This document shows, piece after piece, positions 6,569 through 27,701 of a DNA stretch of 40,844 nucleotides. Where the stretch lies: positions 1 to 40,844 of the IMG/VR virus record IMGVR_UViG_3300025916_000008; one strand, given 5' to 3'. This DNA comes from a virus (Duplodnaviria > Heunggongvirae > Uroviricota > Caudoviricetes). How positions within the stretch are numbered: the first letter of the stretch is position 1; each line of letters begins with the position of its first letter. The notes below the pieces were generated by a model, which had not been told where the DNA came from, did no database searches, and saw only the letters and a list, made by a program, of their open reading frames with translations. Made by a program: the position numbers and the translations under genes.

Positions 6569-6637
6569 CTGGACCGCAAGGTCCTACAGCCACCGGCCGA
6601 CGGGCGAGAGCCCCGAGGGCGGCAACCGGCTCGCATA

Positions 6638-6654
6638 TTGAGAACTCAACAGCG
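6638..6654 (+). promoter_or_regulatory. rrn-type boxA-like antitermination element
   Basis: TTGAGAACTCAACAGCG resembles the actinobacterial rRNA-leader boxA region (..TTTGAGAACTCAA(T/C)AG..). Confidence 0.6.
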
Positions 6655-6659
6655 GAACA

Positions 6660-6940: not shown

Positions 6941-6942
6941 AT

Positions 6943-7015
6943 GGGGCCTTGGCGCAGCAGGTAGCGCGCTTGCATGGCATGCAAGAGGCCGGGGGTTCGA
7001 TTCCCCCAGGCTCCA
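6943..7015 (+). tRNA. tRNA-Ala(GGC)
   Basis: Cloverleaf; CTTGC-ATGGCAT-GCAAG arm; G3.U70. Confidence 0.95.
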
Positions 7016-7100
7016 CGAGGGTGAAGATGCGGGGTTCGAGTCCCCGCCCCGATGGATGATAAGCCGGGCGGTAGCTCAACAGCGCAGAGCATCACTCATC
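7016..7100 (+). ncRNA. Permuted tRNA-core RNA (YrlA/Y-RNA-like), imperfect acceptor stem
   Basis: Order GGTGA - AGATG - T arm - acceptor hairpin - TA-GCTC D arm - A - TCACT. Confidence 0.5.
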
Positions 7101-7270
7101 AGACGGCCCTGTCGCGGCATGCCGCGCGTGTGGCCAGAAGGCGAGACGGCAAGTCTGCTGCCATGTGTAGGGGGCCGTGACGGGCACCCCAGCGGCGGTT
7201 ATACCGAAGGCCGGGCGTCTCCGGCGGCAAAGCAGCAGGTTCAGCGGGAATTCTCCGTCGTCCCGCCCAT

Positions 7271-7343
7271 GGGGATGTAGCTCAGCAGGTAGAGCACCCG
7301 GCCCGCAACCGGGTTGTCAGGGGTTCGATTCCCCTCTTCTCCA
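7271..7343 (+). tRNA. tRNA-Ala(CGC), C33
   Basis: Cloverleaf; loop CC-CGC-AA; G3.U70. Confidence 0.9.
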
Positions 7344-7344
7344 C

Positions 7345-7462
7345 GTGGCGATCCGAGGCACGGCATCCGATGCCATCCCTGATCAGGATGGCTGGACACG
7401 GTAACCGGCTTGAATGCCTGGCGCGAATCCAAGCGCCCAGGCCGGGGTAACTCGCCACTCCA
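7345..7462 (+). ncRNA. tRNA-like RNA with 7-bp acceptor stem and encoded CCA
   Basis: GTGGCGA/TCGCCAC + T + CCA; internal hairpin with CT-GAT-CA loop; no canonical T arm. Confidence 0.45.
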
Positions 7463-7541
7463 CGTCGAAGGAGGACGCATGGTTCTGCGCCATCTCACAT
7501 CCAGTTCTTAGGGACTCGGATGTGAGAGGGGGTGACACCCC

Positions 7542-7691
7542 GTGGCTGGCAAGCAGCACAAGCACAAGAACCGCAAGCACGGGCGCAACCGCGCCAAGTG
7601 CGCGCGGTACGCGGCCGAGCACCGCCGGACGAAGAACAACCCGGCGCGTACCAGGCGCAATCCTGAAAGGACGCCGCATGGACGGCGCTAA
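7542..7691 (+). CDS. 49-aa very basic peptide
   Basis: GTG 7542 after GGGGGTGA RBS; MAGKQHKHKNRKHGRNRAKCARYAAEHRRTKNNPARTRRNPERTPHGRR; below ORF-track cutoff. Confidence 0.6.
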   Translation: MAGKQHKHKNRKHGRNRAKCARYAAEHRRTKNNPARTRRNPERTPHGRR

Positions 7692-7736
7692 CGAAGTACC
7701 AGGAGCGGCCCCGGCCACGCGCCGGGGCTGTTCGAG

Positions 7737-7810
7737 CGGGATGTAGCGTAACGGCAGCGCGCCTGCTTTGGGAGCAGGCAGCCGAGGTTCGACTCCTCGC
7801 CTCCCGACCA
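7737..7810 (+). tRNA. tRNA-Pro(TGG)
   Basis: Cloverleaf; TT-TGG-GA; encoded CCA. Confidence 0.95.
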
Positions 7811-8078
7811 GCCGCCTGGGGCCTGCGCAGCCCCCGAAGCCCCCCGCGCAGGGGAGATTAGTCCTGGTCGTAACCCGGCCGGGTTGGCGGCGCGAACCCT
7901 CTGAGAACCCGGGCAGAGACCAAAAAAGCCGGGCGCAGTCCATAGCACGGGGAGGCGAAGCCGACCGGCAGTACCGTGCAGGTGCCCAGGAAGTGATCGC
8001 GACGCTAGGGCCTGGCACCGAAGGACCTCAACGGAAGTGCGGCGGAAGCAAGAGCCACGCCCTGCCAGAGGTCCGCCT

Positions 8079-8150
8079 CGGGATATGGCGCATCGGTAGC
8101 GCACCCGGCTGGGGGCCGGGGGGCGGCAGGTTCGATTCCTGCTATCCCGA
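8079..8150 (+). tRNA. tRNA-Pro(GGG)
   Basis: Cloverleaf; CT-GGG-GG. Confidence 0.9.
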
Positions 8151-8368
8151 CGTTTGGCAGTGCCGAGGGCAGAGCCGCCTTTAAGCGGTAGTCACCCGAA
8201 GCGGTGACGACCGTCCCGGCGGGGCACCCGGTCCGGACCGGGCGTCATATGCCCGGTGCACTGCCGGCTAGATCCGGAGAGGCGACGGTGAGAAGCCGTC
8301 CCGGGGTGTCTCACGCTCGCGCGAGCGGTGTAGGCCGGTGGTGTAGGTAACAGCATTCTCTGGTTAAT

Positions 8369-8397
8369 CGGAGTGTGGCGCAGCTTGGCTAGCGCGC
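8369..8397 (+). pseudogene. 5' half (acceptor strand + D arm) of a tRNA-Pro, truncated by the endonuclease insertion
   Basis: CGGAGTG-TG-GCGC-AGCTTGGCTA-GCGC-G followed directly by TACAGT -10 and the endonuclease start. Confidence 0.75.
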
Positions 8398-8409
8398 TAC
8401 AGTAGGTCC

Positions 8410-8814
8410 GTGGAGCTTTCAACCGCCCAGAAGGGCGAGCTAGCCATGCTGAAAGTCATGACGCGGGCCGTCGAGCTGGGCTGGATCGCCAGTCGGCCAA
8501 CGCGCGACTGCCGATACGACTTGATCCTCGACGAAGGCTCCAAGCTGTACCGGGCGCAGGTCAAGTTTTGTGCTCGGAAGTCCTCCCACTCCACCGGGGT
8601 GGCACATCTCGATCTCACCAAGGGCGGCGCGCGGAACCGCGCCTACCTGGAGGACGAGATAGATGCCGTGGTGGTCTACGTGGCGGCTATCGACCTGATC
8701 GTCTGGCTCGGCCGGGATATCTTCCATGGCCGGAAGCAATTGCACATCAGGTATAAGCCGACCAGGAGCGGCCAGGTGCAGGGGACGCTGATGGCGTCCG
8801 AGTTCGCCTGGTGA
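8410..8814 (+). CDS. PD-(D/E)XK homing endonuclease, I-Ssp6803I-like
   Basis: KGELA..V...A...GW.ASRP..DCRYDLILD......RAQVK pattern; tRNA context; leaderless (TACAGT 6 nt before GTG). Confidence 0.8.
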   Translation: MELSTAQKGELAMLKVMTRAVELGWIASRPTRDCRYDLILDEGSKLYRAQVKFCARKSSHSTGVAHLDLTKGGARNRAYLEDEIDAVVVYVAAIDLIVWLGRDIFHGRKQLHIRYKPTRSGQVQGTLMASEFAW

Positions 8815-8817
8815 TAT

Positions 8818-8892
8818 CGGGTTATAGCGCAGCTTGGTGAGCGCGCCTGCTTCGGGAGCAGGAGGTCCCCAGTTCAAATCTGGGTAACCCGA
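8818..8892 (+). tRNA. tRNA-Pro(CGG)
   Basis: Cloverleaf; TT-CGG-GA. Confidence 0.95.
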
Positions 8893-8943
8893 CGGGGCCT
8901 GATGATCACAGGCCTGCTGGGACGCGGCGTCGAGAACCGCGTT

Positions 8944-9056
8944 AGATGCCGGTGCTGGCTGCACGGGTGAACGGCTGCGCAGGGAAATCCTCCCGGTGAG
9001 GGAGGCCGGTACCTGCGCGATGGAATCCAGGCCAGGTTCGATCCCTGGGGCATTGC
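8944..9056 (+). ncRNA. tRNA-shaped RNA with extended anticodon-arm-like hairpin and no anticodon loop
   Basis: Acceptor ATGCC/GGCAT, D arm GCTG/CGGC, stem GCGCAGG/CCTGCGC, T arm CCAGG-TTCGATC-CCTGG. Confidence 0.55.
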
Positions 9057-9057
9057 T

Positions 9058-9205
9058 GACCTGGAAGGTGGGCTTAGAGGCAGCCATCCTTCAAAGAGCG
9101 GGGTCATGCCGCCTCCTGTCCGAGGGCAGCTCGCGGTGACAGCGAGCCCGCTGGCGGGCGGGCGGGCAAACGGAGCACCCCCTTGGCGTAAAAGCACACC
9201 AGGTC
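9058..9205 (+). ncRNA. 23S rRNA GTPase-associated-centre (H43-H44, uL11-binding) mimic with 87-nt insertion
   Basis: GACCTGGAAGGTGGGCTTAGAGGCAGCCATCCTTCAAAGAG...GCGTAAAAGCACACCAGGTC aligns to E. coli 23S ~1050-1109 with compensatory changes. Confidence 0.85.
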
Positions 9206-9210
9206 TTCAC

Positions 9211-9284
9211 GGTCGTGTAGCTCAGTCGGAACGAGCGGTCGCCTGAAAAGCGACAGGTCCCCTGTTCGATCCAGGGCATGACCA
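9211..9284 (+). tRNA. tRNA-Phe(GAA)
   Basis: Cloverleaf; CT-GAA-AA. Confidence 0.95.
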
Positions 9285-9401
9285 CGGTGACGGAGTACTA
9301 CGTCACTTGGCTCCCGTGGTAAGCGCACTACGGGAAAATCGGTTGGCCTGGTGGCCGCCCTGGTGAAGAGCCGGGCCTGGGTTCGATCCCCGGGATCGTG
9401 C

Positions 9402-9472
9402 GCGGATGTAGCTCAACGGCAGAGCCCCTGCCTTCCAAGCAGGCCACGCGGGTTCGATTCCCGTCTTCCGCT
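9402..9472 (+). tRNA. tRNA-Gly(TCC)
   Basis: Cloverleaf; CT-TCC-AA. Confidence 0.95.
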
Positions 9473-9662
9473 CTGCGGCGTGACGCGGCCAGGTCCCTCG
9501 GATCGTCGCGGCCAGGCGAGTAGCGCTCCTCCTGGTAAACAGGACCTTCGCGAGGGTCCTGCCTCACGTCCCCCGGGGCACCTCACAACGTCGCCGGCAC
9601 CCTGGCCTCCCCGCCGCAAGCCCGGAGTGCCAGGCCCTGGACCGGCGGGGCCTCGGGACCAC

Positions 9663-9735
9663 GCGCCGCTAACTCAATTGGCAGAGTGCCTGACTCTTAA
9701 TCAGAACGTTGGGGGTTCAAGTCCCTCGCGGCGCA
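9663..9735 (+). tRNA. tRNA-Lys(CTT)
   Basis: Cloverleaf; CT-CTT-AA. Confidence 0.95.
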
Positions 9736-9813
9736 CTGGAGGAATACTGAAGGCCGAACCCGGGGCTGGTGCCGACGAAGAGGCCTCCTGCCACCAGCAG
9801 TATTCCTCCTCAC

Positions 9814-9887
9814 GGGCGAGTAGCAGAACGGCATATGCCGGGGCCTCAAAAACCTTGTGAATGCGGGTTCGAATCCCGCCTTGCCCA
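9814..9887 (+). tRNA. tRNA-Leu(CAA), weak anticodon stem, short variable arm
   Basis: CT-CAA-AA; stem GGGGC/ACCTT has two G.U pairs and one mismatch. Confidence 0.75.
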
Positions 9888-10053
9888 CAGGCGCTGACGG
9901 CGATGTCCGCTGCGGCCGGGAGGTACCCAGTCCTCCGACGCGGCGCACAGGAGCGCGGTATCAAGTACCAGACCGTCCGCCCGGGTAGCGCCCGGGGGAG
10001 ACTGAGGACTGATAAAACCCGGCCGAGCCTGAGTGGCCTGGGCTGATTGCCAA

Positions 10054-10127
10054 TGGGGTATAGCTCAACTCGGCAGAGCGCCGGCGTCTGGTGCCGGAGG
10101 TTCCAGGTTCGAATCCTTGTATCCCAG
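10054..10127 (+). tRNA. tRNA-Gln(CTG)
   Basis: Cloverleaf; loop GT-CTG-GT; U1-A72. Confidence 0.9.
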
Positions 10128-10191
10128 CGCCGTCGACCTCGGTGAGGCTAGCCGGGGGAGGCCGTCCTGAGCATGACGCTAAAAGGCATCT

Positions 10192-10264
10192 GCCCTTGTA
10201 GCTCAGTTGGTAGAGCAGCGCTCTCGTAAAGCGCAGGCCAGCGGTTCGAAGCCGCTCGGGGGCT
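10192..10264 (+). tRNA. tRNA-Thr(CGT)
   Basis: Cloverleaf; CT-CGT-AA. Confidence 0.95.
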
Positions 10265-10344
10265 CCCGGTCAGTGGGACGAACCAAGGTGCAGCGGCTAG
10301 CCGCCAAGGTACCGGCCGGAATCCGGTTTCCACTGACTGGCCTT

Positions 10345-10429
10345 GTCCTTGTGGCGAAATGGCAGACGCGCCAGCTTGAGGTGCTGGTACCCCGTAAGGG
10401 GCGTGAGGGTTCGAGTCCCTCCTCGGACA
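10345..10429 (+). tRNA. tRNA-Leu(GAG)
   Basis: Type II cloverleaf; TT-GAG-GT; two acceptor mismatches. Confidence 0.9.
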
Positions 10430-10546
10430 CGGGCAGGATAGACCCGGGGATGCCGCGCGGTCCCCGGCGGAGCGGGGAACGGCAGCGCCGAGCGCTCGGG
10501 GCTGCGGCACCTGGTTGTCCTGGACCGGGAGGGTACCCCGGGCTAT

Positions 10547-10619
10547 GCCGCCTTAGCTCAGCAGGCAGAGCGATCCCCCTGTAAGGGAAGGCGCGGCGGT
10601 TCGATTCCGTCAGGCGGCT
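10547..10619 (+). tRNA. tRNA-Thr(TGT), C33
   Basis: Cloverleaf; CC-TGT-AA. Confidence 0.85.
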
Positions 10620-10620
10620 C

Positions 10621-10694
10621 TGGGCGTTAGCTCAACATGGCAGAGCGCACGGCTTTGGTCCGTGAGGTTCGGGGTTCGATCCCCTGCCGCCCAG
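10621..10694 (+). tRNA. tRNA-Gln(TTG)
   Basis: Cloverleaf; CT-TTG-GT. Confidence 0.9.
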
Positions 10695-10699
10695 CGTGG

Positions 10700-10766
10700 G
10701 CCGCCGGATGGCACGAGGGAGGGTGCCTACAGTTGCAACTACCCGTTCGAATCGGGAACGGCGGCT
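10700..10766 (+). pseudogene. Degenerate tRNA-like element (Cys GCA-like loop)
   Basis: GCCGCCG/CGGCGGC stem, GGCAC/GTGCC arm, CCCG-TTCGAAT-CGGG arm; collapsed anticodon and variable region. Confidence 0.35.
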
Positions 10767-10793
10767 CTCCAGCTCCCCCGGTAACCTGGCCTC

Positions 10794-10994
10794 ATGAGCG
10801 TGAAGCACGTGCAGGCGCAGCTCCGGTCGGGCACCACGGTGCGGACGTGCTGGCTCCCCCAGGGGATCAAGCCGGGTGACCGGGTGACCCTGAAGAACTC
10901 CGAGGACCCGGCCCGCTGGTGGGACGTGACGGAGGTCGGCAGCGAGGCCCGCGAGCTGTCGGAGATCAATCGCGGGTGGAACAACAACATCTAG
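10794..10994 (+). CDS. Small hypothetical protein (leaderless)
   Basis: 66 aa; TAACCT 6 nt before ATG; stop overlaps first base of tRNA-Thr(GGT). Confidence 0.7.
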   Translation: MSVKHVQAQLRSGTTVRTCWLPQGIKPGDRVTLKNSEDPARWWDVTEVGSEARELSEINRGWNNNI

Positions 10995-11066
10995 CCTGGA
11001 TAGCTCCAGCGGCAGAGCGGCTCCATGGTAAGGAGCAGGTCGCCGGTTCGAATCCGGCTCCAGGCT
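10994..11066 (+). tRNA. tRNA-Thr(GGT)
   Basis: Cloverleaf; AT-GGT-AA. Confidence 0.95.
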
Positions 11067-11138
11067 CGGGGACTTCTTGATCACGGTGATCGTGTCCGTG
11101 GCGCACCAAGCCCCGCCCGGTGGGAATCCGGGCACCAC

Positions 11139-11211
11139 GCGGTTGTGGCGCAGCAGGCAGCGCGGCACCTTGCCAAGGTGCAGGTCGCCGGTTCGATCCC
11201 GGTCAGCCGCT
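11139..11211 (+). tRNA. tRNA-Gly(GCC)
   Basis: Cloverleaf; TT-GCC-AA. Confidence 0.95.
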
Positions 11212-11479
11212 CTCGGGGTACCGAGCCTCCGATGGCCCAAAGCCTGAGTCGCGACACGGAGAGCCCTCCGACGGCCGAGTTAGCCTGAAGGGGACCCTGA
11301 CCAACTGGCACGGCACGGTGCCTGACCGGATGTCCCAGCCGACCTACCCCGGCTGCGTGACGCCGGCGCAAACCCGACCGGGGTAGCGGCCGGGAACGTG
11401 TCTCCGGGGTGCTCGCTGCCGTCGCCCCGGGCGTCCAGTAGGGCGCTGATCCCGTCCCGGCGGGTGAACGGTAGCTTAC

Positions 11480-11555
11480 GCGGTTGTAGCTCAGCAGGCA
11501 GAGCACGTGCTTCCCAGGCATGATGTCGCGGGTTCAATTCCCGCCAGCCGCTCCA
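11480..11555 (+). tRNA. tRNA-Gly(CCC)
   Basis: Cloverleaf; TT-CCC-AG; encoded CCA. Confidence 0.95.
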
Positions 11556-11623
11556 CGCCGCGCCCGGCGGCGTCACTCTCCCCGCGAGGGGAGACAAGGG
11601 TTCCTCGGGGCTCCCGGGCACAT

Positions 11624-11708
11624 GGGCTTGTGGCGGAATGGCAGACGCGCCAGTTTCAGGAACTGGTGTCCCGCAAGGGACGTGAGGGTTCGAGTCCCTC
11701 GGGGCTCA
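11624..11708 (+). tRNA. tRNA-Leu(CAG)
   Basis: Type II cloverleaf; TT-CAG-GA. Confidence 0.9.
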
Positions 11709-11758
11709 CGGGGATGCGCAGGTGGCCCGGCTTGCAAGAGCCCGGCGGTCCCTAACCT

Positions 11759-11845
11759 GGAGAGCGAACCGGACAGGCGCGCCGGGCTTCGCCGCTAACG
11801 AATGCGCGGGGGTGACCCCGTGGGTTTCGAGTACTCCGCTCTCCG
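11759..11845 (+). tRNA. tRNA-Ser(GCT), C33
   Basis: Type II; CC-GCT-AA; G73; irregular T stem. Confidence 0.8.
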
Positions 11846-11850
11846 CACCT

Positions 11851-11908
11851 GGGCCGCAGCACTGGAGTGCAGCCGGATGGACGGGTTCGATTTCCCGTGC
11901 GGTCCACC
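11851..11908 (+). ncRNA. Anticodon-less mini-tRNA with Ala identity (G3.U70, A73)
   Basis: GGGCCGC/GCGGTCC-A-CC, GCAC-TGGA-GTGC arm, ACGGG-TTCGATTT-CCCGT arm; only 10 nt between D and T arms. Confidence 0.65.
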
Positions 11909-11964
11909 GGGTCCCGGCAGGCCATGCCGGATTTTCCGGACACACCGGAAGCCGGGACCGGCAT

Positions 11965-12047
11965 GGAGAGGTCGCCTAGCGGTCTATGGCGCTTGCCCGG
12001 AAAGCAAGTTGGGGTAACCCTCGCGAGTTCGAATCTCGCTCTCTCCG
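11965..12047 (+). tRNA. tRNA-Ser(GGA), C33
   Basis: Type II; CC-GGA-AA; G73. Confidence 0.9.
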
Positions 12048-12069
12048 CGCGGATGGTAGATTAGCTGTT

Positions 12070-12543
12070 ATGCCATCCGAAATATCCTGCGCCTGGGCAG
12101 CCGGGATTCTCGACGCCGACGGATGCGTAACCATGAGACCGCCATCGGGCGGTCGGTTCCGGTCCCCCTACCTTGTAGTCGACTCCACCGACAGGGAGAT
12201 CCTGGAAGAGTTGGTTGCCAGCTTCGGCGGTCGCATCCACGAGAAGAGCGTCCGGCATGAGCACTGGCGTCGCCAGTGGTCCTGGCGGATGTACGGGACC
12301 GTTGGCATCCTTGAGTTCCTGCGGCTGGTCATCCCGTACATGCGATGCCCCGCCAAGGTAGCTCGGGCGAGGATGCTAATCGACGAGTACCCGGCGCTGA
12401 CTCAGCGAAACGGCTGGTACACCCCAGAACAGCGGGCAGCAAAGCTCGACATGGAGGAGCGGTTCATGGCTATCGGTTACGGCCGAGGAGCCAGCCTGCG
12501 AGCCCTCCCAAGACCCGGAAGCGTAAGCCGAGCTTCGGCCTAA
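12070..12543 (+). CDS. Single-motif LAGLIDADG homing endonuclease
   Basis: WAAGILDADGCV motif plus LVVDSTDREILEEL..FGG.I; extended -10 TGG-TAGATT 7 nt before ATG 12070; stop codon inside the next tRNA's D loop. Confidence 0.85.
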   Translation: MPSEISCAWAAGILDADGCVTMRPPSGGRFRSPYLVVDSTDREILEELVASFGGRIHEKSVRHEHWRRQWSWRMYGTVGILEFLRLVIPYMRCPAKVARARMLIDEYPALTQRNGWYTPEQRAAKLDMEERFMAIGYGRGASLRALPRPGSVSRASA

Positions 12544-12606
12544 CGGCGGCTGTCTCGAAAACAGCTAGGGGTAACTCCCGTGTGGGTTCGAGACCCACCG
12601 CTTCCT
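12517..12606 (+). tRNA. tRNA-Ser(CGA)
   Basis: GGAAGCG/CGCTTCC acceptor; CT-CGA-AA; long variable arm; overlaps the LAGLIDADG 3' end. Confidence 0.85.
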
Positions 12607-12610
12607 CTGC

Positions 12611-12802
12611 TTACGGCACGCGCCGCCTGGCGTTCCAGTTTCCGGCTCCCCAGCCGGAGCCGAACCCCGCCTCGGCGAGGGCCAGGAAAGTCAGCCCGAT
12701 GGCGATGATCCCGATGATGACGGTCAGGGAGATGCCGTGGACGCCGAGGATCGCGATGATCGCGGCGATGAGGAAAGCGAGGACCGCAAGTCCGTAAGTC
12801 AT
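12611..12802 (-). CDS. Small two-TM membrane protein
   Basis: 63 aa hydrophobic; AGAAGGAG RBS; CCCCGGAAG motif upstream. Confidence 0.75.
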   Translation of the reverse strand: MTYGLAVLAFLIAAIIAILGVHGISLTVIIGIIAIGLTFLALAEAGFGSGWGAGNWNARRRVP

Positions 12803-12858
12803 GACAGGGCTCCTTCTGAGGAGCTACCTGCCCCTCAGTTCTTCCGGGGGGCGGTCGA

Positions 12859-12932
12859 GGGCGTGTAGCTCAGTCGGTTAGAGCACTTCCCTGATAAGGA
12901 AGGGGTCAGAGGTTCAATTCCTCTTTCGCCCA
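12859..12932 (+). tRNA. tRNA-Ile(GAT)
   Basis: Cloverleaf; CT-GAT-AA. Confidence 0.95.
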
Positions 12933-12936
12933 CCTC

Positions 12937-13008
12937 GGCGGTGTAGCTCAGTGGCAGAGCACCCGGCTCATAACCGGGAGGCCGGCGGGTCGTTCCCGCC
13001 CTCCGCTA
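12937..13008 (+). tRNA. tRNA-Met/Ile2(CAT), atypical T loop
   Basis: CT-CAT-AA; T loop GTCGTTC; Met vs lysidine-Ile identity not resolved. Confidence 0.8.
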
Positions 13009-13165
13009 CCTGGACCTGCGGGCAGGTTCCGGGCTCGTGCGCCAGCAGCAGCGCGGTGCCGGCCCAGAGATGGAATGCTGACTCTCCCGGCAGCACCGGG
13101 CGAGGGCACAGGAGGCACCGCCAGGGAAACGGCCCCCGGTAGGTGAAGACCTGCCCGATACGCAC
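12968..13165 (-). CDS. Small Cys/His hypothetical protein antisense to tRNA array
   Basis: TAGTAT 6 nt before GTG 13165; CLLC and H..C motifs. Confidence 0.5.
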   Translation of the reverse strand: MRIGQVFTYRGPFPWRCLLCPRPVLPGESAFHLWAGTALLLAHEPGTCPQVQVAEGGNDPPASRL

Positions 13166-13177
13166 GACCAGATACTA

Positions 13178-13253
13178 GGGCCGTTAACTCAGTGGTAAGA
13201 GTGTCACCCTTATAAGGTGAGAGTCGTGCGTTCAATCCGTACACGGCCCACCA
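13178..13253 (+). tRNA. tRNA-Ile(TAT)
   Basis: Cloverleaf; CT-TAT-AA; A73; encoded CCA. Confidence 0.9.
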
Positions 13254-13301
13254 GGACGGAGAGCACGTGAACGTCAAACAGGCCCGGCGAATACCTTTCG
13301 C

Positions 13302-13373
13302 GGGCTGGTAGCTCAACGGCAGAGCAGCGGTCTTTTAAACCGTGGGTTTAGGGTTCGAATCCCTGGCAGCCCA
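13302..13373 (+). tRNA. tRNA-Lys(TTT)
   Basis: Cloverleaf; CT-TTT-AA. Confidence 0.95.
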
Positions 13374-13377
13374 CCCT

Positions 13378-13450
13378 GCGCCATTAGCTCAGAGGAAAGA
13401 GCGGCCGGCCTCTACCCGGCTCGCCGGGGGTTCGAGTCCTCCATGGCGCA
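13378..13450 (+). tRNA. tRNA-Arg(TCT), C33
   Basis: Cloverleaf; CC-TCT-AC. Confidence 0.8.
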
Positions 13451-13538
13451 CGAGACTGGCCCACTTAAGACGGGCTCCGTGGACGCGGGTGCTAGCCCCT
13501 CGTCCTCCCCCGGCGGTCGGTCAAGCCGCGCGGAACAC

Positions 13539-13612
13539 GGTCCGTTGGAGGAATCGGCGAACTCACCTGGCCCTCAACCAGGAGATTGCGGGTTCAAGCC
13601 CCGCACGGATCA
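13539..13612 (+). tRNA. tRNA-Glu(CTC), C33
   Basis: Cloverleaf; CC-CTC-AA. Confidence 0.9.
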
Positions 13613-13799
13613 CGCAAGCCGGGTACCCAGCCAGCGGGTGACAAGCCCGGCGTGCAAGGACGCTGGCCTCTGCGAGCGGGAGCGCATGCCTCCCGCGCTT
13701 ACTCGGGGACCCGTTACGCGGGAGGACGGCCATCCAATACGGCGTCCCCGTAATACGATCCGGACCGCAGGTGGCTGAAATCCGCTGGACCGGACATCT

Positions 13800-13872
13800 G
13801 CCCCCATCGGCCAATGGCTAGGCCGTCTGCCTTTCAAGCAGGAGAAGACGGGTCGGAACCGTCTGGGGGAGC
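13800..13872 (+). tRNA. tRNA-Glu(TTC), atypical T loop
   Basis: CT-TTC-AA; T loop GTCGGAA; G1.A72 mismatch. Confidence 0.75.
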
Positions 13873-13902
13873 GAGGCCGGGACATGTATCCTGGCCACAC
13901 GA

Positions 13903-13977
13903 CGCGGAGTGGGGGAGTTCGGTGTCCCCGCTGGGCTCATAACCCTGAGATCGCGGGTTCAAATCCCGCCTCCGCAA
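13903..13977 (+). tRNA. Initiator tRNA-fMet(CAT)
   Basis: C1.A72 mismatch; GGG/CCC anticodon stem; CT-CAT-AA. Confidence 0.95.
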
Positions 13978-14123
13978 CGAGGAAGTGCTGGGCTGGTACT
14001 TGGCAACGTGTAGCGCCGCAGGGTCCGCCCTGCGGTGCTGTGACCGTAAGTCCCTTAAACCTCCCCCCTAGTCACGTCTGGAGCGCCGGCCAGCGCCAGT
14101 AAACGGGAAGAGCACTGAATCAT

Positions 14124-14197
14124 TCCGGTGTAGCTCAATTCGGCAGAGCAGGCGGCCGTTAACCGCAAGGTTCCAGGTTCGATTCCTGGTACCGGAG
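14124..14197 (+). tRNA. tRNA-Asn(GTT), C33
   Basis: Cloverleaf; CC-GTT-AA; G73. Confidence 0.9.
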
Positions 14198-14247
14198 CAT
14201 CACGGTTGGCGCGGCGGGTAAAATCCCAGCCTTAACCGCGCCGTCAT

Positions 14248-14322
14248 GGTCTTGCAGGGCAGCCAGGAGTGCCCACCTCCCTGTCAAGGAGGAGATCGCC
14301 GGTTCGAATCCGGTCAGGACCG
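14248..14322 (+). tRNA. tRNA-Asp(GTC)
   Basis: Cloverleaf; CT-GTC-AA; G73. Confidence 0.9.
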
Positions 14323-14381
14323 CCGGGAAGGTCATCGGCAGAAGTGAAAGAGCGCGCCTTGTCGAGGGCGGCTCGCCTTCC

Positions 14382-14522
14382 CTACAGCCCGGTTATCCGC
14401 CGCCGGTTGTGCAGCTCGGCCTCGCCGAGCCGCTCCAGCCCGTGCACCGCGCCGCTGCGCCGGCCGCAGGCGAAGCCGACGATGAAGGCGACGACGATGA
14501 TCACGGCAAGTGCAAGTCCCAT
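14382..14522 (-). CDS. 46-aa single-TM protein antisense to tRNA array
   Basis: MGLALAVIIVVAFIVGFACGRRSG...; TATCGT 7 nt before ATG; below ORF-track cutoff. Confidence 0.65.
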   Translation of the reverse strand: MGLALAVIIVVAFIVGFACGRRSGAVHGLERLGEAELHNRRRITGL

Positions 14523-14571
14523 GTAACAAACGATACGTTTCCCTGGCTTACCTGGCCACCGGGGACGAAAC

Positions 14572-14643
14572 GGGCGCTTAGCTCAGCGGAAGAGCGCTTC
14601 TCTGACACAGAAGAGGCCGGAGGGTCAGCACCTCCAGTGCCCA
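14572..14643 (+). tRNA. tRNA-Val(GAC), atypical T loop
   Basis: CT-GAC-AC; T loop GTCAGCA. Confidence 0.85.
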
Positions 14644-14650
14644 CGGTAAG

Positions 14651-14728
14651 AGGACAGTGGTGAAATCGGTAGACATTGGCGAGGAAGGGTGCCACCCCCT
14701 CATGCAGGTTCGAGTCCTGCCTGTCCTC
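14651..14728 (+). ncRNA. tRNA-Leu-like RNA with remodelled anticodon arm
   Basis: AGGACAG/CTGTCCT acceptor, Leu-type D region GGTGAAATCGGTAGAC, perfect T arm; no 7-nt anticodon loop. Confidence 0.55.
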
Positions 14729-14771
14729 TCGCTAAAGGCGGCCCTGGTTGCAACCGGGGCCGCCTCAACTC

Positions 14772-14844
14772 GCGGACGTAGCTCAACGGATAGAGCGTCA
14801 GCCTACGGAGCTGAGCGTTGGGGGTTCGAGTCCCTCCGCCCGCA
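14772..14844 (+). tRNA. tRNA-Arg(ACG)
   Basis: Cloverleaf; CT-ACG-GA. Confidence 0.95.
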
Positions 14845-14989
14845 CGGTCCCCAGGGACTGGTCCATGGCTCCCCTGCACGGCTCCTCATGTGGGAGACAT
14901 GCCGTGCGCCGCCGCACTTGCCCCACCCTGGGAGCGGCGGAGTTCCTGGGCGACTGCTCAATGAGTGGTTGAAGCAGTCATCACATCAC

Positions 14990-15061
14990 GGGCGACTAGC
15001 TCAAAGGAAGAGCGCTGGTCTCACACACCAGGGGTTGAAGGTTCGAGCCCTTCGCCGCCCA
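14990..15061 (+). tRNA. tRNA-Val(CAC)
   Basis: Cloverleaf; CT-CAC-AC. Confidence 0.95.
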
Positions 15062-15063
15062 CC

Positions 15064-15136
15064 GGGTCGTAACCCAAACGGTTGCGGGGCCTGCCTGTGG
15101 AGCAGGTATTAGCGGGTTCGACCCCCGCACGACCCT
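15064..15136 (+). tRNA. tRNA-His(GTG), irregular 5' region
   Basis: CCTGC-CTGTGGA-GCAGG arm, T arm; position-8 register and discriminator atypical. Confidence 0.7.
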
Positions 15137-15140
15137 CCGT

Positions 15141-15236
15141 GGTGAACATGGTGCAACGGAAGCACGCCGGCCTAGCTGGATTTACTGCTCTCGTGGAGCC
15201 GGAGACCGCCGGGGTTCGACTCCTGGCGTGTTCATC
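15141..15236 (+). tRNA. tRNA-His-like gene with 19-nt insertion in anticodon loop
   Basis: G-1:C73, GTGAACA/TGTTCAT acceptor; loop CT+[15174-15192]+GTGGA; T stem extended. Confidence 0.7.
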
Positions 15237-15242
15237 ACCCCT

Positions 15243-15323
15243 GGCGGAGTGACCCGAGATGGCATGGGGGCGGTCTGTAAAACCGCTGCTTCGGCACGGC
15301 TGGTTCGAGCCCAGCGTCCGTCA
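15243..15323 (+). tRNA. tRNA-Tyr(GTA)
   Basis: Type II; CT-GTA-AA. Confidence 0.9.
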
Positions 15324-15334
15324 CGTAGTTCTTT

Positions 15335-15407
15335 GCGCCCGTAGCTCAGCGGATAGAGCACCGCCCTCCGGAGGCGGGGGCCGGGGGTTCGAGTCCCTCC
15401 GAGCGCA
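15335..15407 (+). tRNA. tRNA-Arg(CCG)
   Basis: Cloverleaf; CT-CCG-GA. Confidence 0.95.
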
Positions 15408-15577
15408 CTGGGAAGTGGTGTAAGAGGGCGATCCGGCCAAGCTCGTGGCCACGGGCGAAGGCAGGGGAAGCCCCTCGACAGCGCTGCCCGCCGAGACCAT
15501 GGCAGCCGGCGGGCGGACAGCATCCCCGGGTTCCACCCCGGGGCGGTCCTGGCGAGAACCCAGGCTTCCCAGCCAAC

Positions 15578-15648
15578 CGCAGGGTGTCCGAGAGGCGAGG
15601 TCCTGGTCTGCAAAACCAGGTACGCGGGTTCGAATCCCGTCTCTGCGT
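15578..15648 (+). tRNA. tRNA-Cys(GCA)
   Basis: CT-GCA-AA; U73. Confidence 0.9.
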
Positions 15649-15683
15649 CGGGAACCGGGTGCGGTGCATCCATTCCGGTTCTA

Positions 15684-15756
15684 AGCCCGGTAGCTCAGGG
15701 GATAGAGCTATCGCCTCCTAAGCGAGTGGTCGGGGGTTCGAGTCCCTCCCGGGCTG
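15684..15756 (+). tRNA. tRNA-Arg(CCT)
   Basis: Cloverleaf; CT-CCT-AA. Confidence 0.9.
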
Positions 15757-15813
15757 CCCCGCGTGTTCCGCTGCTGAGTCCCTCCGCCCTGGAAGCAGGG
15801 AGGAGGCCAACAC

Positions 15814-22623: not shown

Positions 22624-24726
22624 GTGGCCAACCACCCAGGAGCGGCAGCGCTCACCGGCAGCGGGACTATCACGCCGCACGGCACGGCCACCCGCCGTAA
22701 GTCCGCCGCCCTGTCCGGCTCGGGCACCTTCACCGCCCACGAGAAGAACGCATACCCGGTGGCGGCCCTGTCGGGATCGGGGAGCTTCACCGCGAACGGG
22801 CGGCGTCAGATCCCGGTGACGTTCCAGGCGGGCGCTTCGCTGTCGGTGAGCGCCCGGGTCATCAAGAACGCCACCGCCGCGCTGGCGGCTGCCCCGGTGC
22901 TCACCGCCACCGGGTTCGTGCCGATGATGGCCGCGCGCCCCGTGCTGGCCGCCACGGCGAAGGTGACCGAGGTGGCCGCCGCCGCCTTCACTGCGCCGGG
23001 CACCCTGACGGCGGCCACGTCGCAGTCGGCCGCGCACCTGTCGGCCGCGCCCGCGCTGCTGGCCCCCGGGCGGATGGCCGCCGCCCGCCTGCTGGCGGGC
23101 ACCTCGATGTCGGTGTCCGGCACGTACTTCATGCCGGGCGCTGCGGCGCTGTTCGCCGGCCCTGTCCTGTCGGCTGCGGCGAGGGTCACCGAGCTTCCCT
23201 CCGTTCACCTGAGCGCGCCCGCCTCGATGTCCGTCCCGTCGTCCCTGCGGGTGCAGGCGTCGGCTGCCTTCCACGGCGGGGCGGCCCTGTCGGCGGCCCC
23301 GTTCACCGCCTCCGCCCACCTGTCGGCCGCGCCCGCGCTGAGCGCGGCTGGCACCGGGACCGACTTCGCGCACGCGGCGCTGAGCGCACCGGGTTCCGTC
23401 ACCTTCCACGGACAGGTCACGCGCAAGCCCAGGGCGGCCCTCAGCGGCTCCGGGACGATCCACTCGCGTGGTACGACCGTCAAGTTCGCCAGCGCCGCCC
23501 TGAGGGCTTCTGCGGCCCTCCGGGCGGCAGGGGTGCGCGGCGTCGCGGCGCACTCCGCGCTGACGGCGGCGGCGCACCTCTCAGCGGGCGCGCTCCGCTC
23601 GGCGGCGGGCCGGGCGGCGCTGTCCGCCCAGGTAAGCGCCTTCGTCTCGGCCCAGGTGACACCTGGCGTGCGCCTGAGCGCCGCCGCCGTGCTGTCCGGC
23701 TCGGCGGTCCTCAGCCGGACGGTGCGGTCCACGCTGTCCAGCGGGGCGAGGCTCACCGCGACCGCGCACGGCACGGCGTTCCCGCGCGCCGCCTTCACCG
23801 CCCCCGGTGCCCTTGCCGCCGTGCCGCTCGGGGTGGTCAAGGGCGGCGAGGCGATGGCCGCCAGCCCGTCGCTGCGGGCGGCGGCCAGCACCAGGCCGAG
23901 GCTGCCGTTCCCGCAGCCGCCGGGCAGGCAGCAGGCCGCCTGGGAGCGGGACGTCCAGCGCTTCGCGATCGTCCAGGAGCGACAGCGGCACGCCCAGGCG
24001 CTTTGGCAGTACGGCGAGCTGGTGATGTTCGCCCTGATGTGGAAGCCCGAGGACATCACCTCTGGGCTGGCGCGACGGTGCACCCGCTGCTACGTCCCCG
24101 CCCAGGTGATCAGCGACCTGCCCCCGGAGACGCCGCCGCCGCTGGGATGGCCGACGGCATCCACGGAAGCTCAGATCAGCGCCGCCTACGGGCAGGGCAC
24201 CCAGTTCCGCTGCCCGCTGTGCTTCGGCACCCAGGTGATCGCGGCCGGGACGGTGAAGGTACCCGGCGTACGGGCGCTGCTGGTGCGCCCGGCGATCCTC
24301 ACCGACACCGACCAGAACCAGCAGCGCACCGCGCGGGGCGTCGTCAACACCGGGAGCGTGCAGGTGCAGTCGACGCCTGACTTCCGGGTGCACACCCTGG
24401 ACTACCTGTTCCGGTCAGACGGGCGGCGCTACCAGCTCTCGGTGCCGTCCCGGACGACGCTGCGCACCGGGTTCGGCTCCCCGTGGCAGGACGCGGCCGG
24501 GATCAGCTACAACGTCTCGAACGCCAGCCTGGAGGACCCGGACGCCTCGGTGGCGTACGCCATCGCCCCGCTGGCCGCCGAGCTGGCGCAGGTGCTCGGC
24601 ACCTACACCAGGGTCCCGGCTGACTACGCCTGGGTCGAGCAGGTGAACGGGCCGCTGATCCCCGGCGAGGACCCGCCGCCCGCCGCGTACGGGCTGTATC
24701 AGCCGCCGGCCTCAGCGGGCGTCTGA
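22624..24726 (+). CDS. Virion protein: Ala-rich repeat N-terminus fused to CxxC-containing head-completion-like domain
   Basis: ~420 aa of AALSA/AAP repeats, then RCTRC...CPLCFGT domain; function inferred. Confidence 0.6.
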   Translation: MANHPGAAALTGSGTITPHGTATRRKSAALSGSGTFTAHEKNAYPVAALSGSGSFTANGRRQIPVTFQAGASLSVSARVIKNATAALAAAPVLTATGFVPMMAARPVLAATAKVTEVAAAAFTAPGTLTAATSQSAAHLSAAPALLAPGRMAAARLLAGTSMSVSGTYFMPGAAALFAGPVLSAAARVTELPSVHLSAPASMSVPSSLRVQASAAFHGGAALSAAPFTASAHLSAAPALSAAGTGTDFAHAALSAPGSVTFHGQVTRKPRAALSGSGTIHSRGTTVKFASAALRASAALRAAGVRGVAAHSALTAAAHLSAGALRSAAGRAALSAQVSAFVSAQVTPGVRLSAAAVLSGSAVLSRTVRSTLSSGARLTATAHGTAFPRAAFTAPGALAAVPLGVVKGGEAMAASPSLRAAASTRPRLPFPQPPGRQQAAWERDVQRFAIVQERQRHAQALWQYGELVMFALMWKPEDITSGLARRCTRCYVPAQVISDLPPETPPPLGWPTASTEAQISAAYGQGTQFRCPLCFGTQVIAAGTVKVPGVRALLVRPAILTDTDQNQQRTARGVVNTGSVQVQSTPDFRVHTLDYLFRSDGRRYQLSVPSRTTLRTGFGSPWQDAAGISYNVSNASLEDPDASVAYAIAPLAAELAQVLGTYTRVPADYAWVEQVNGPLIPGEDPPPAAYGLYQPPASAGV

Positions 24727-24932
24727 CCGAAGTCGTCGAACTCGCCGTTCATCACGCCGCCCAGGAAGTCGCGCCACTCGCCCGGGGTGTAGGTGAGGAC
24801 GCCCTGGGCGTGGTCCTGGCCGTTGCGGACCTGGGCGCTCCCGTCGGAGAGAAGCTGGACCTCGACGGAGTTGCCGGCGGCGGAGAGGCTCGACTTGAAC
24901 CATGGCTTACTGACAGTAACGTCATGTGACAT
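24699..24932 (-). CDS. DUF397 (BldB/AbaA-like) family protein
   Basis: WFKSS.S...NSVEV...VRN...G.LTYTP.EW.DFL.GV..GEF matches the DUF397 pattern; TAGAAT 7 nt before ATG. Confidence 0.85.
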   Translation of the reverse strand: MSHDVTVSKPWFKSSLSAAGNSVEVQLLSDGSAQVRNGQDHAQGVLTYTPGEWRDFLGGVMNGEFDDFGQTPAEAGG

Positions 24933-25042
24933 ATCAGTGATTCTATGCAATAATCCTCGCAAGCACCCGGATTTGGCGGCCCATTCCGGGTGCTTTTCTA
25001 ATCCCTGTGCACCTCAATCGCATCGCCTGGTACGTTATGTCC

Positions 25043-25188
25043 CGAGCACAAGCTGAGGTTCAGGCTGAGGCTGACACGCTCCCACATTGACCGGAAGGCC
25101 CTGGTTCGACTCCAGGTCCCGGCACCCGCGCCGGGATAGCTCAGGGAGAGCACCCGGAGGGAGCCTCAGGATCAGGATGTGACGCTCG
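25043..25188 (+). ncRNA. YrlA-like Y RNA #1 (permuted tRNA core on long stem)
   Basis: T arm 25100-25116, closed acceptor hairpin TCCCGGC/GCCGGGA, D arm 25139-25151, long bulged terminal stem; TGG-TACGTT -10 at ~25028-25036. Confidence 0.8.
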
Positions 25189-25196
25189 AAGCTGAA

Positions 25197-25364
25197 GCTC
25201 GCGCCAGCACGTGCAGATCCACCTGGTGGCCGCAGACGACAAGAAGCTGCGGGTTCGAGTCCCGCCCGGGGCGCTCCGTGCCCCGGTGGTCCAAGGGCAA
25301 GACGTCTTCCGTTCAGGATGACGGCCACCCGACAGCCGCTGCACGCGGACCTGGTGCCAGGAGC
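25197..25364 (+). ncRNA. YrlA-like Y RNA #2
   Basis: T arm 25249-25265, closed acceptor hairpin CCGGGGC/GCCCCGG, D arm GTC/GAC, stems GGTGGCCG/CGGCCACC, CGTGCAG/CTGCACG, GCGCCAG/CTGGTGC. Confidence 0.8.
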
Positions 25365-25453
25365 GAACCTGATAAGTCCGTAATCCTGATTACGTCGCCC
25401 CGGCGTACACGGCAAAGGTGCGCCGGGGCACCAAAGCACCCACGGGGAGAGGC

Positions 25454-26212
25454 ATGACGCAGACGCTCGGGCAGGTAGTGGCGGCGGAGGCAGCGGCGCG
25501 GGCCGATGCCAACAAGCGCGGCGGGACGCTGCACAAGCAGGGCCAGAAGACCGACCTCTTCGAGGGGTTCGACACCACGTACTCGCCGTTCGCCGAGGCG
25601 GACGACGGGAGCGACTCCCGGGCGCTCCAGCGCCCCCCGGAGGGCAAGCGCGTCCAGCTCGTCGCCGAGGACCTGCTGCGCGAGTTCATGAACGAGATGC
25701 GCAGCGCCATCGACCTGGCCGCCGTCAAGGACGAGGCCAACTGCCGGGCGAGGGCCGACGTGATCACGCCCGGCGGCCTGGTCCTGCTGACCGCCGTCCC
25801 GGCCACCCACCTGCTGCACATGGAGAAGGTGCTGGAAGACTTCGCGACCTTCATCGCCAAGCTCCCGGTCCGCGACCCGGCCATCGACTGGACCTACAGC
25901 CCCGACGACCGGATGGCCCACTCCCCGGCGACCTTCACCAACAGCGAGGAGGTCCGGACGAAGGCGCTGGTTATCGTCGCGCCGACGCAGTACCAGGCCG
26001 GCCAGGGGACCACCTACCAGGAGCGCGTCGCCGTCGGCCGCCGCACCACCGTCCGGCACACCGGGGCGCTGTCGGTGCAGCGCAAGCGCGACCTGGAGCG
26101 GCGCGTCGCCGAGCTGAAGGTCGCCTTCAAGCAGGCCCGGGAGGCGGCGAACCGCGTGGAGGCCGCCGACGTCCGGGAGGCCGACGAGCTGTTCGGCTAT
26201 ATCCTGGGATAG
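25454..26212 (+). CDS. Conserved actinobacterial/phage helical protein of unknown function
   Basis: L.Q..A.E...K...L..G...TY.P...P.E.K.VQ..AED...KLPV.D...W...TGAL...R...L..RV..LK.A.K.AREAAN...LFGYI recalls a widespread Streptomyces hypothetical family. Confidence 0.8.
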   Translation: MTQTLGQVVAAEAAARADANKRGGTLHKQGQKTDLFEGFDTTYSPFAEADDGSDSRALQRPPEGKRVQLVAEDLLREFMNEMRSAIDLAAVKDEANCRARADVITPGGLVLLTAVPATHLLHMEKVLEDFATFIAKLPVRDPAIDWTYSPDDRMAHSPATFTNSEEVRTKALVIVAPTQYQAGQGTTYQERVAVGRRTTVRHTGALSVQRKRDLERRVAELKVAFKQAREAANRVEAADVREADELFGYILG

Positions 26213-26588: not shown

Positions 26589-27701
26589 CTACCGGAAGAC
26601 AAGAAGCCGCGTTCCCGGGAACAGGTTCCGGTTGTGGGAGGTGGACTGGACGAACACGGTCATCCCCGGCTTCGGGGTCGGCGCGACCGTGACCTCGTAG
26701 CCGTCGGGGAGCCCGACGAGCCCGCGCACCTGGTCGAGCGACCCAGAGTAGACGCGCCGTTCGTCCTGGGGACGCTCGGGGGCCACCTCGATGGCCACGC
26801 TCTTGTACGACTGGATCTTGGCCCGGTCGGTGAACTGGTAGTAGCACTTGCCCTTCGGGTAGGCGCGCCCCTGGTCAGCGAAGACCTTCTCGATGCCGAT
26901 CTTGCCGCGCGGGCCGCCGCACATGGCATCGGTGATGTCGATGAAGTAGTAGCTGCCCGGAGTCATCGGGACGAGGACGCTCTTCACGTCGGCTGCGGAG
27001 AAGTCGCGCATCTCGAACAGGCCGCCGCCGGACCGGACGCTGTAGCCCCGGACTCCCTGGGCGCGGGCCGCCATGTAGGACTCGGCGACGTCGCCCATGA
27101 GGGTGGCCGCCTCCTCGATCCCCTGCTCGGAGGTCGAGTCCCAGACGCTGATGTTAGAGGCCGGGAAGCCGAACTGCTGAGCCTGCACCTTGCCCATCTG
27201 GTCCGGGACGAACAGGCCGTAGGTCTCGTTGTCCGGGGCGGAGGCCAGTGCCCTGGACCACTCGGAGATCACCCGGGACTGGTTCTCGCGGGTGCGGGGG
27301 AAGTAGCTGTCGTTCTCTTCCCCGTCGGTCCAGCCGAAGACGACGAAGGAGTGGTTGCCGTACTTGACCGGGATCTCCCGCAGGTCGCTCATGGCGAGCT
27401 GGAAGGTCTGGAGGAGCGCGGTGTTCCCGTGCGGGTGGTAGAGCCCCTCCAGTGAGGGCACCCTCAGGACGTCCATGTCGTAGATGACGCACTTTTGGGT
27501 CCCGTAGGAGTTGAAGAAGTACACCGTGATCCGGGTCTCCTGGCCGGCCGTCTTCGAGGTGACGGCCAGGCGGGCGATGAAAGCGTCGAAGACGCGGACC
27601 ACGGCCGCCCGGAGGCCCCGCATGGACAGTGACTCGTCCACGATCAGGATGAAGTGGTTGATGTAGTTGGCCGGCTCACTGGCCGTCGCGCCTACGGGCA
27701 T
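26589..27701 (-). CDS. von Willebrand factor A (MIDAS) domain protein
   Basis: ILIVDESLSM (DxSxS), GNTAL, WTDGEEN motifs. Confidence 0.8.
   Translation of the reverse strand: MPVGATASEPANYINHFILIVDESLSMRGLRAAVVRVFDAFIARLAVTSKTAGQETRITVYFFNSYGTQKCVIYDMDVLRVPSLEGLYHPHGNTALLQTFQLAMSDLREIPVKYGNHSFVVFGWTDGEENDSYFPRTRENQSRVISEWSRALASAPDNETYGLFVPDQMGKVQAQQFGFPASNISVWDSTSEQGIEEAATLMGDVAESYMAARAQGVRGYSVRSGGGLFEMRDFSAADVKSVLVPMTPGSYYFIDITDAMCGGPRGKIGIEKVFADQGRAYPKGKCYYQFTDRAKIQSYKSVAIEVAPERPQDERRVYSGSLDQVRGLVGLPDGYEVTVAPTPKPGMTVFVQSTSHNRNLFPGTRLLVFR

What the first reader, a model, noticed from the sequence alone, without database searches (positions are those of the whole stretch)
25197..25364. YrlA-like Y RNA #2 in tandem, divergent in sequence but with the same architecture
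Seen: AAGA, AGCT, T arm GCGGG-TTCGAGT-CCCGC, acceptor hairpin CCGGGGC/GCCCCGG, TG, D arm GTC...GAC, G, TCTT. It then forms an extended rod with 7-8-bp helices (25225-25232/25322-25329, 25210-25216/25339-25345, 25201-25207/25351-25357). The low sequence identity to RNA #1 with identical topology argues for structural selection. Inference: the two paralogues tether different partners or decoy different tRNA-recognising enzymes.
Basis: partly seen in the sequence, partly recalled or inferred. Interest (0 to 1): 0.75.

Follow-up and report, generated by a model that had tools for sequence, protein, structure and literature searches.

The report
Two-headed tRNA-mimic RNA before DUF7873
The back-to-front tRNA look-alike is real, but it is the second domain of one roughly 390-base folded RNA that travels with an unstudied protein gene (DUF7873) in phages and bacteria, rather than a Y RNA beside its usual Ro60 partner.

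Summary
Observation confirmed. Of 41 pairs, 32 show two-sided changes (95% of cells paired, 0/500 shuffles). The head is a YrlA-type permuted tRNA with a 7-bp acceptor.

It fails the Y-RNA criteria: no GNCGAA motif, Rfam YrlA 29 of 69 bits, and no Ro60 in this 162-kb actinophage or in 14 other carrier phage records. The two units share only the head; unit 1's rod and the proposed cut site are conserved ARRYUN hexamer repeats.

The cassette lies beside DUF7873 in every close homologue examined, in 19/19 myxobacterial genomes carrying the gene, and in 20/23 distant loci by model search. Here it precedes the gene; elsewhere it follows it, so the link survived a reversal of order.

Best reading: one RNA, bound by self-associating DUF7873, presents two anticodon-less tRNA mimics that protect tRNA during infection. 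Expression, binding, processing and function are untested. This scan already reported the module in at least 78 other genomes; I found no paper describing it.

The parts
25028..25036 (+). Extended -10 promoter-like element (TG-n-TACGTT); predicted RNA start about 25043-25044
   Evidence: Read from sequence; TGGTA core conserved upstream of the RNA in the clade alignment. Start site inferred.
25043..25188 (+).
   Evidence: head degenerate in some homologues (L265, L267, L011)
25050..25073 (+). Four tandem ARRYUN hexamers on the 5' strand of domain 1; two related hexamers at 25168-25179 on the 3' strand
   Evidence: All 4 tandem-pattern matches in the 41-kb window fall in this cassette, 0.67 expected, 0/100 shuffles; similar repeats seen by eye in distant cassettes
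25189..25200 (+).
   Evidence: Several invariant columns across 13 homologues; pattern match at 25189-25199
25201..25357 (+). Domain 2 (the finding): three-helix rod carrying a permuted tRNA head
   Evidence: model R1 finds it full length in 20 of 23 distant DUF7873 loci
25241..25308 (+). tRNA-like head of domain 2: 4-bp anticodon-stem equivalent, T arm, loop-closed 7-bp acceptor (G73, C74, U at -1), D arm; no anticodon loop
   Evidence: Acceptor 7/7 pairs compensatory and 100% paired; U8, A14, A15, G53-C61, T54, T55, A58, C74 and U-1 invariant in 15 homologues; Rfam YrlA 29.3 bits
25397..25429 (+). 12-bp hairpin closing the RNA on its 3' side (terminator or stabilising hairpin, no U tract)
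   Evidence: (covarying); a similar hairpin ends the cassette where the gene lies upstream. Its role is inferred.
25454..26212 (+). DUF7873 (PF25283) gene, 252 aa: long helices plus a long beta-hairpin; candidate partner
   Evidence: Pfam E 5.7e-55; model pLDDT 89.9; 2,534 clusters at 50% identity; self-association 0.61 against best control 0.00

Best explanation
One promoter (about 25028) makes a single RNA of roughly 390 bases: domain 1, hexamer linker, domain 2, 3' hairpin. Read-through past the hairpin supplies the DUF7873 mRNA (inferred). DUF7873 self-associates (predicted) and binds the RNA, most likely at the 6-nt ARRYUN repeats (inferred), in place of Ro60. The particle displays two tRNA elbows with acceptor arms and no anticodon (fold shown by covariation; 3-D mimicry inferred from the conserved tertiary bases). 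Most likely it protects translation during infection, by occupying or scaffolding enzymes that recognise the tRNA elbow or acceptor end (host tRNA-attacking toxins, or tRNA processing and repair enzymes). The 7-bp acceptor may be opened by RNase P and given CCA, as shown for M. smegmatis YrlA. Domain 2, the finding, is the conserved core. My odds: functional partnership about 0.7, direct binding about 0.5, the tRNA-protection role about 0.35.
For: Covariation. The cassette lies directly upstream of DUF7873 in all close homologous loci examined, 38-92% protein identity, and downstream of it in Rhodococcus, Gordonia, Arthrobacter and cyanobacterial phages and IMG/VR phages. All 19 DUF7873-positive Myxococcota genomes carry it beside the gene. 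Of 66 gene-negative genomes only one had a model match, and that cassette starts at a contig end. The order is reversed in this clade yet the link is kept. No TROVE in this phage or 14 other carrier phage records. Hexamer enrichment. Self-association score 0.61, best control 0.00; the mark was reached by 20 of 30 proteins solved as pairs and 1 of 23 solved as single chains; runs agree in at least 91% of contacts, pLDDT at least 78. The module sits inside tRNA clusters in NiceHouse and Phendrix and just after one in Mimi; this phage has 39 tRNA genes. [quoted passage not shown]
Against: Gene neighbourhood shows neither binding nor function. Loci were picked as the best protein matches, and many myxobacterial genomes are close kin, so the counts are not independent. 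The model missed 3 of 23 distant loci. The genome survey scored only 35 candidates per genome. The DUF7873 fold has no clear RNA-binding relative. G73.U-1 and C74-G-2 could extend the acceptor to 9 bp, which may hinder RNase P. The Pfam TROVE model missed a probable Ro-like protein in myxobacteria, so a Ro partner supplied by the host is not excluded.
Confidence: 0.5

Rival explanations
1. Two divergent Y RNAs that bind a host-encoded, possibly divergent, Ro60/Rsr in trans, tethering or titrating it, with DUF7873 as the effector on the tRNA-like end (closest to the first reader's view).
For: YrlA-type head. Tandem Y RNAs processed from one precursor are known in M. smegmatis (PMC4201824). The phage is related to cluster C mycobacteriophages, which carry Ro60. 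Myxobacteria with the cassette often also have a separate YrlA-like RNA before a vWA-ending, Ro-sized ORF.
Against: No GNCGAA(N)G in the cassette; the nearest sequence varies across homologues. No Ro60 in 15 carrier phage records. Model R1 does not match the YrlA beside Rizal's Ro. Published YrlAs lie within 4 kb of Ro.
Confidence: 0.15
2. The RNA is the antidote or regulator of DUF7873: the protein is a conditional toxin or anti-defence effector held inactive by the RNA, and released when tRNA-targeting nucleases cut the tRNA-like heads.
For: The layout here (promoter, repeat-bearing RNA, hairpin, gene) resembles type III toxin-antitoxin loci (own knowledge). Gene and RNA are tightly coupled.
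Against: In most lineages the RNA follows the gene. No catalytic fold or toxin family was detected. The repeats are 6-nt, not 30-50-nt pseudoknot units.
Confidence: 0.17
3. The RNA acts alone as a stable tRNA decoy or sponge, possibly cut into two RNAs, and DUF7873 is only co-regulated.
For: Each domain is a closed unit with no cross-domain helix in the consensus fold; the heads are complete tRNA mimics.
Against: The link persists across phyla and through a reversal of order; no RNA was found without the gene apart from one contig-end case; the linker is conserved.
Confidence: 0.13
4. A permuted tRNA gene that matures into a decoding tRNA-Glu, using a TTC hairpin at 25305-25321, or a remnant of two tandem tRNA genes.
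For: A TTC-centred 7-nt loop can form in the window sequence; junctions between tandem tRNAs give weak YrlA hits.
Against: That hairpin is 45% paired with no compensatory change, whereas AAGA/TCTT is 98% paired. Acceptor strands pair within each unit, not across units. ARAGORN calls no tRNA here.
Confidence: 0.02

Closest known systems
YrlA (Rfam RF02553) with Ro60/Rsr; Chen et al. 2014 (PMC4201824), Wang et al. 2018 (10.1101/312249)
   Same: Order T arm, loop-closed acceptor, D arm on a long stem; tRNA tertiary bases kept; no anticodon loop; occurs in actinophages; the 7-bp acceptor matches M. smegmatis YrlA, which RNase P cuts.
   Different: No GNCGAA motif; no Ro60 nearby or found in the phage; 29.3 bits against a cut-off of 69; two heads in one unit; longer three-helix rod; hexamer repeats; fixed neighbour DUF7873.
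b7a-tRNA / YrlA beside Band-7 proteins in RtcB operons (Burroughs and Aravind 2016, as cited in 10.1101/312249; the original could not be read)
   Same: A tRNA-like RNA proposed to work with a non-Ro protein.
   Different: The partner here is DUF7873. This phage's Band-7 gene is about 47 kb away and no RtcB was found. Band-7 lies close to the cassette in L267 and NiceHouse.
Circularly permuted tRNA genes of red and green algae and Thermofilum (own knowledge)
   Same: The 3' half precedes the 5' half and the acceptor is closed by a loop.
   Different: No conserved anticodon arm, so it cannot mature into a decoding tRNA.
Type III toxin-antitoxin loci (ToxIN, CptIN, TenpIN; own knowledge)
   Same: Promoter, repeat-containing RNA, hairpin, then gene, in this clade.
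   Different: tRNA-like heads, 6-nt repeats, no toxin family match, and the reverse order in most carriers.

Membership tests
YrlA Y RNA (RF02553) | Permuted tRNA-like domain (T arm, closed acceptor, D arm) with tRNA tertiary bases | tested here: met
YrlA Y RNA (RF02553) | [quoted passage not shown] | tested here: met
   Three covarying helices
YrlA Y RNA (RF02553) | GNCGAAN0-1G Rsr-binding motif near the 5' end | tested here: not met
   No match within the cassette; the nearest is GCCGCAG, which is not conserved
YrlA Y RNA (RF02553) | Ro60/TROVE gene within about 4 kb on the same strand | tested here: not met
   Flanking genes are DUF397, DUF7873 and a 370-aa opposite-strand ORF; no TROVE, Rizal-Ro or myxobacterial Ro-like match in the genome
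YrlA Y RNA (RF02553) | Rfam gathering score of 69 bits | tested here: not met
   29.3 bits. Weak test: the YrlA beside Rizal's Ro scores only 36.1
YrlA Y RNA (RF02553) | Binds Ro60/Rsr; modified by TruB and Dus | not testable with these tools
   Needs binding and modification mapping
Permuted tRNA gene | Anticodon arm that can be restored | tested here: not met
b7a-tRNA / Band-7 RNA-repair module | Adjacent Band-7 and RtcB genes | tested here: not met
   Band-7 at genome position 72553; no RtcB found
Type III toxin-antitoxin | Toxic endoribonuclease neutralised by repeat RNA | tested here: inconclusive
   No family or fold match; toxicity not testable here

The most novel reading that the evidence does not exclude
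A widespread, undescribed ribonucleoprotein class: oligomeric DUF7873 coats 6-nt repeats of a two-headed tRNA-mimic RNA and uses the heads, possibly RNase P-opened and CCA-tailed, to shield phage and host tRNAs from tRNA-targeting defences. It would be a Ro60-independent counterpart of the Ro/Y RNP.
Probability: 0.3. Interest if true: 0.88.

Novelty: new variant of a known kind. Interest (0 to 1): 0.66.

Why it matters
tRNA is a main battleground between phages and hosts, and what the tRNA-like domain of bacterial Y RNAs binds is stated as unknown in PMC4201824 and 10.1101/312249. A second family that puts two such domains on a different scaffold, beside a protein family of over 2,500 clusters, separates the mimic from Ro60. 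It also gives a testable system in cultured phages (NiceHouse, Phendrix, Mimi, Fryberger) with laboratory hosts. This clade adds the reversed gene order, which argues for a functional link rather than chance adjacency.

Tried and rejected
Glu-anticodon hairpin at 25305-25321: rejected. A split tRNA spanning both units (weak Rfam tRNA hit 25130-25273): acceptor strands mismatch. Protein coding: ORFs overlapping the cassette fail the codon-bias filter, and homologues carry scattered single-base indels. Ro60, RtcB and tmRNA: none found in the genome. blastn of the cassette against cultured phages gave only T-arm fragments; the family diverges too fast for DNA search. Fold searches for DUF7873 gave nothing clear: Cas7 hits at E about 0.01, TM 0.13, rmsd about 20 are not evidence of homology; the best VIA Z of 8 is to a designed helical bundle. 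Broad DNA-pattern scans returned mostly chance matches. No paper names DUF7873 or PF25283, and topic searches found no description; subscription journals are not covered, and Burroughs and Aravind 2016 and the 2020 Wolin review were not held.

Full report
Setting. The window is the first 40.8 kb of a 162-kb virus record, 68.5% G+C, with 39 tRNA genes at 6.5-15.8 kb. Its major capsid protein is 57-59% identical to those of cluster C mycobacteriophages and related Gordonia phages, so the host is probably an actinobacterium (inference). The finding lies in a non-coding gap between a DUF397 gene on the minus strand and a DUF7873 gene at 25454-26212.

Observation. All elements and all three rod helices are as described. 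Single-sequence folding is only mildly better than shuffles (z -1.88) and does not return the tRNA-like head, so I relied on homologues. They were collected through the neighbouring protein, not through the RNA. The acceptor is 7 bp in all 15 with every pair covarying. U8, A14, A15, G53-C61, T54, T55, A58, C74 and the U at -1 are invariant; U48, C56 and the D-loop GG are nearly so. These are the contacts that build the YrlA L-shape (10.1101/312249). My own alternative, a Glu-type anticodon hairpin after the D arm, fails (45% paired).

It is not a second copy of the same RNA. A covariance model of unit 2 matches unit 1 only through the head. In the whole-cassette alignment, unit 1's rod is conserved in sequence with little covariation, unit 2's rod covaries, and no helix joins the two units. 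Unit 1's head decays in some relatives while unit 2's persists. Unit 1 and the linker carry ARRYUN hexamers; all four tandem matches in the window lie in the cassette (0.67 expected). In proteobacterial phages and myxobacteria the repeats read AAACUN or AGACUC, which cannot pair with one another, so they look like protein-binding sites (inference). A conserved extended -10 element before unit 1 and a covarying 12-bp hairpin after unit 2 suggest one transcript from about 25043 to 25430 (inference; no reads were available).

It is not a canonical Y RNA. Published YrlAs have a GNCGAAN0-1G motif and lie within 4 kb of Ro60 (PMC4201824). The motif is absent. No Ro60 is found in this genome with the Pfam model, with the Ro of phage Rizal, or with a myxobacterial Ro-like protein, nor with the Pfam model in 14 other carrier phage records, several of them complete. 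The unit-2 model does not match Rizal's YrlA. Caveat: in myxobacteria a separate single YrlA-like RNA precedes an ORF of Ro-like size ending in a vWA domain, which the TROVE model did not detect (its identity as Ro is untested). Absence of a TROVE match is therefore not airtight, and a host Ro acting in trans is not excluded.

The constant neighbour is DUF7873. The cassette lies directly upstream of the gene in all close homologues examined. It lies downstream in NiceHouse, Phendrix, Mimi, Fryberger, cyanophage PA-SR01 (with an intervening stretch) and several IMG/VR phages. The model finds it in 20 of 23 distant loci; in two of the three misses a head with a long acceptor insert is visible by eye. 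In Myxococcota, 19 of 201 genomes have the gene and all 19 have a head or a model match beside it. Among 80 genomes searched with the RNA model, all 14 gene-positive genomes matched (in half of them the scored match was the separate YrlA-like copy) and 1 of 66 gene-negative genomes matched, at a contig end. These counts are inflated by kinship and by choosing top protein hits. The reversal of order in this clade is the more independent sign: RNA and gene stayed together through a rearrangement.

The protein. DUF7873 has 2,534 clusters at 50% identity and nearly constant length among the best hits. The model (pLDDT 89.9) shows long helices and a long beta-hairpin at residues 160-203, with no clear structural relative. 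Three copies scored 0.61 against a best control of 0.00; the mark was reached by 20 of 30 proteins solved as pairs and 1 of 23 solved as single chains, runs agreed in at least 91% of contacts, and pLDDT was at least 78. The calibration used two copies, so it holds only roughly. The result supports self-association and says nothing about RNA binding.

Mechanism. Shown: the fold, its conservation, the linkage, and the lack of the Y-RNA motif. Predicted: DUF7873 self-association. Inferred: a single transcript, binding at the hexamers, elbow mimicry, RNase P and CCA processing (by analogy with M. smegmatis YrlA; a possible 9-bp extension argues against), and a role in protecting tRNA, suggested by its place in phage tRNA clusters. 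I put this full reading at 0.5 for the particle and lower for the specific role. Rivals are a host-Ro Y RNA, an RNA antidote for DUF7873, and a free decoy.

Prior art. I stated this reading before consulting the scan's notes. The scan has since proved to hold 90 findings on the same module in at least 78 genomes; one later check accepted the observation (90/100) and priced binding at 22/100. That is not independent support, and it made me more cautious about binding. The listed notes mostly describe the RNA following the gene; the upstream arrangement is what this locus adds. No paper in the searchable library names the family.

Verdict: a real, conserved RNA domain; a new variant of YrlA-type tRNA mimics with a different scaffold and a probable different partner; interest 0.66.

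Noticed in passing
window 6496-15758 (+): Array of 39 tRNA genes, two with unclear anticodons (10547, 14650), and a PD-(D/E)XK endonuclease gene at 8410-8814 inside it.
   Followed up: partly
window 26589-27701 (-): 370-aa ORF (phrog_26613) with an N-terminal DxSxS motif suggestive of a vWA domain; an ORF of similar size lies downstream of DUF7873 on the opposite strand in most clade loci. Not Ro60 architecture.
   Followed up: no
window 24926-24995 (+): Strong sigma-70-type promoter match followed by a GC hairpin and short T run, shared with L009; possibly a separate short transcript antisense to the DUF397 gene.
   Followed up: no
window 24699-24962 (-): DUF397 gene, kept just upstream of the cassette, sometimes doubled, in most clade members.
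   Followed up: no
L320 1536-1683 and 1839-3200; G182:C1:5180008-5181659: Myxobacteria with the cassette often have a second, single YrlA-like RNA between a metallophosphoesterase gene and a long ORF ending in a vWA domain that the Pfam TROVE model misses; possibly a divergent Ro60 locus.
   Followed up: partly
L274 1063-1591: Gordonia phage Phendrix has a tmRNA (89 bits) that is not annotated in the record.
   Followed up: no
L275 ~3985-4060, L276 ~2370-2430, L277 ~2570-2640, L280 ~2480-2550: In some distant cassettes the acceptor loop holds a long insert, often a hairpin, so loop length is not constrained family-wide.
   Followed up: no
window 25216-25223 and 25330-25338: Conserved internal loop in domain 2 (RAUCNAC on the 5' side; CUUAAAC on the 3' side in distant members), a second candidate binding or tertiary site.
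   Followed up: no
G000:C1:72553-73125: Band-7/SPFH gene far from the cassette here, but close to it in L267 and NiceHouse.
   Followed up: no
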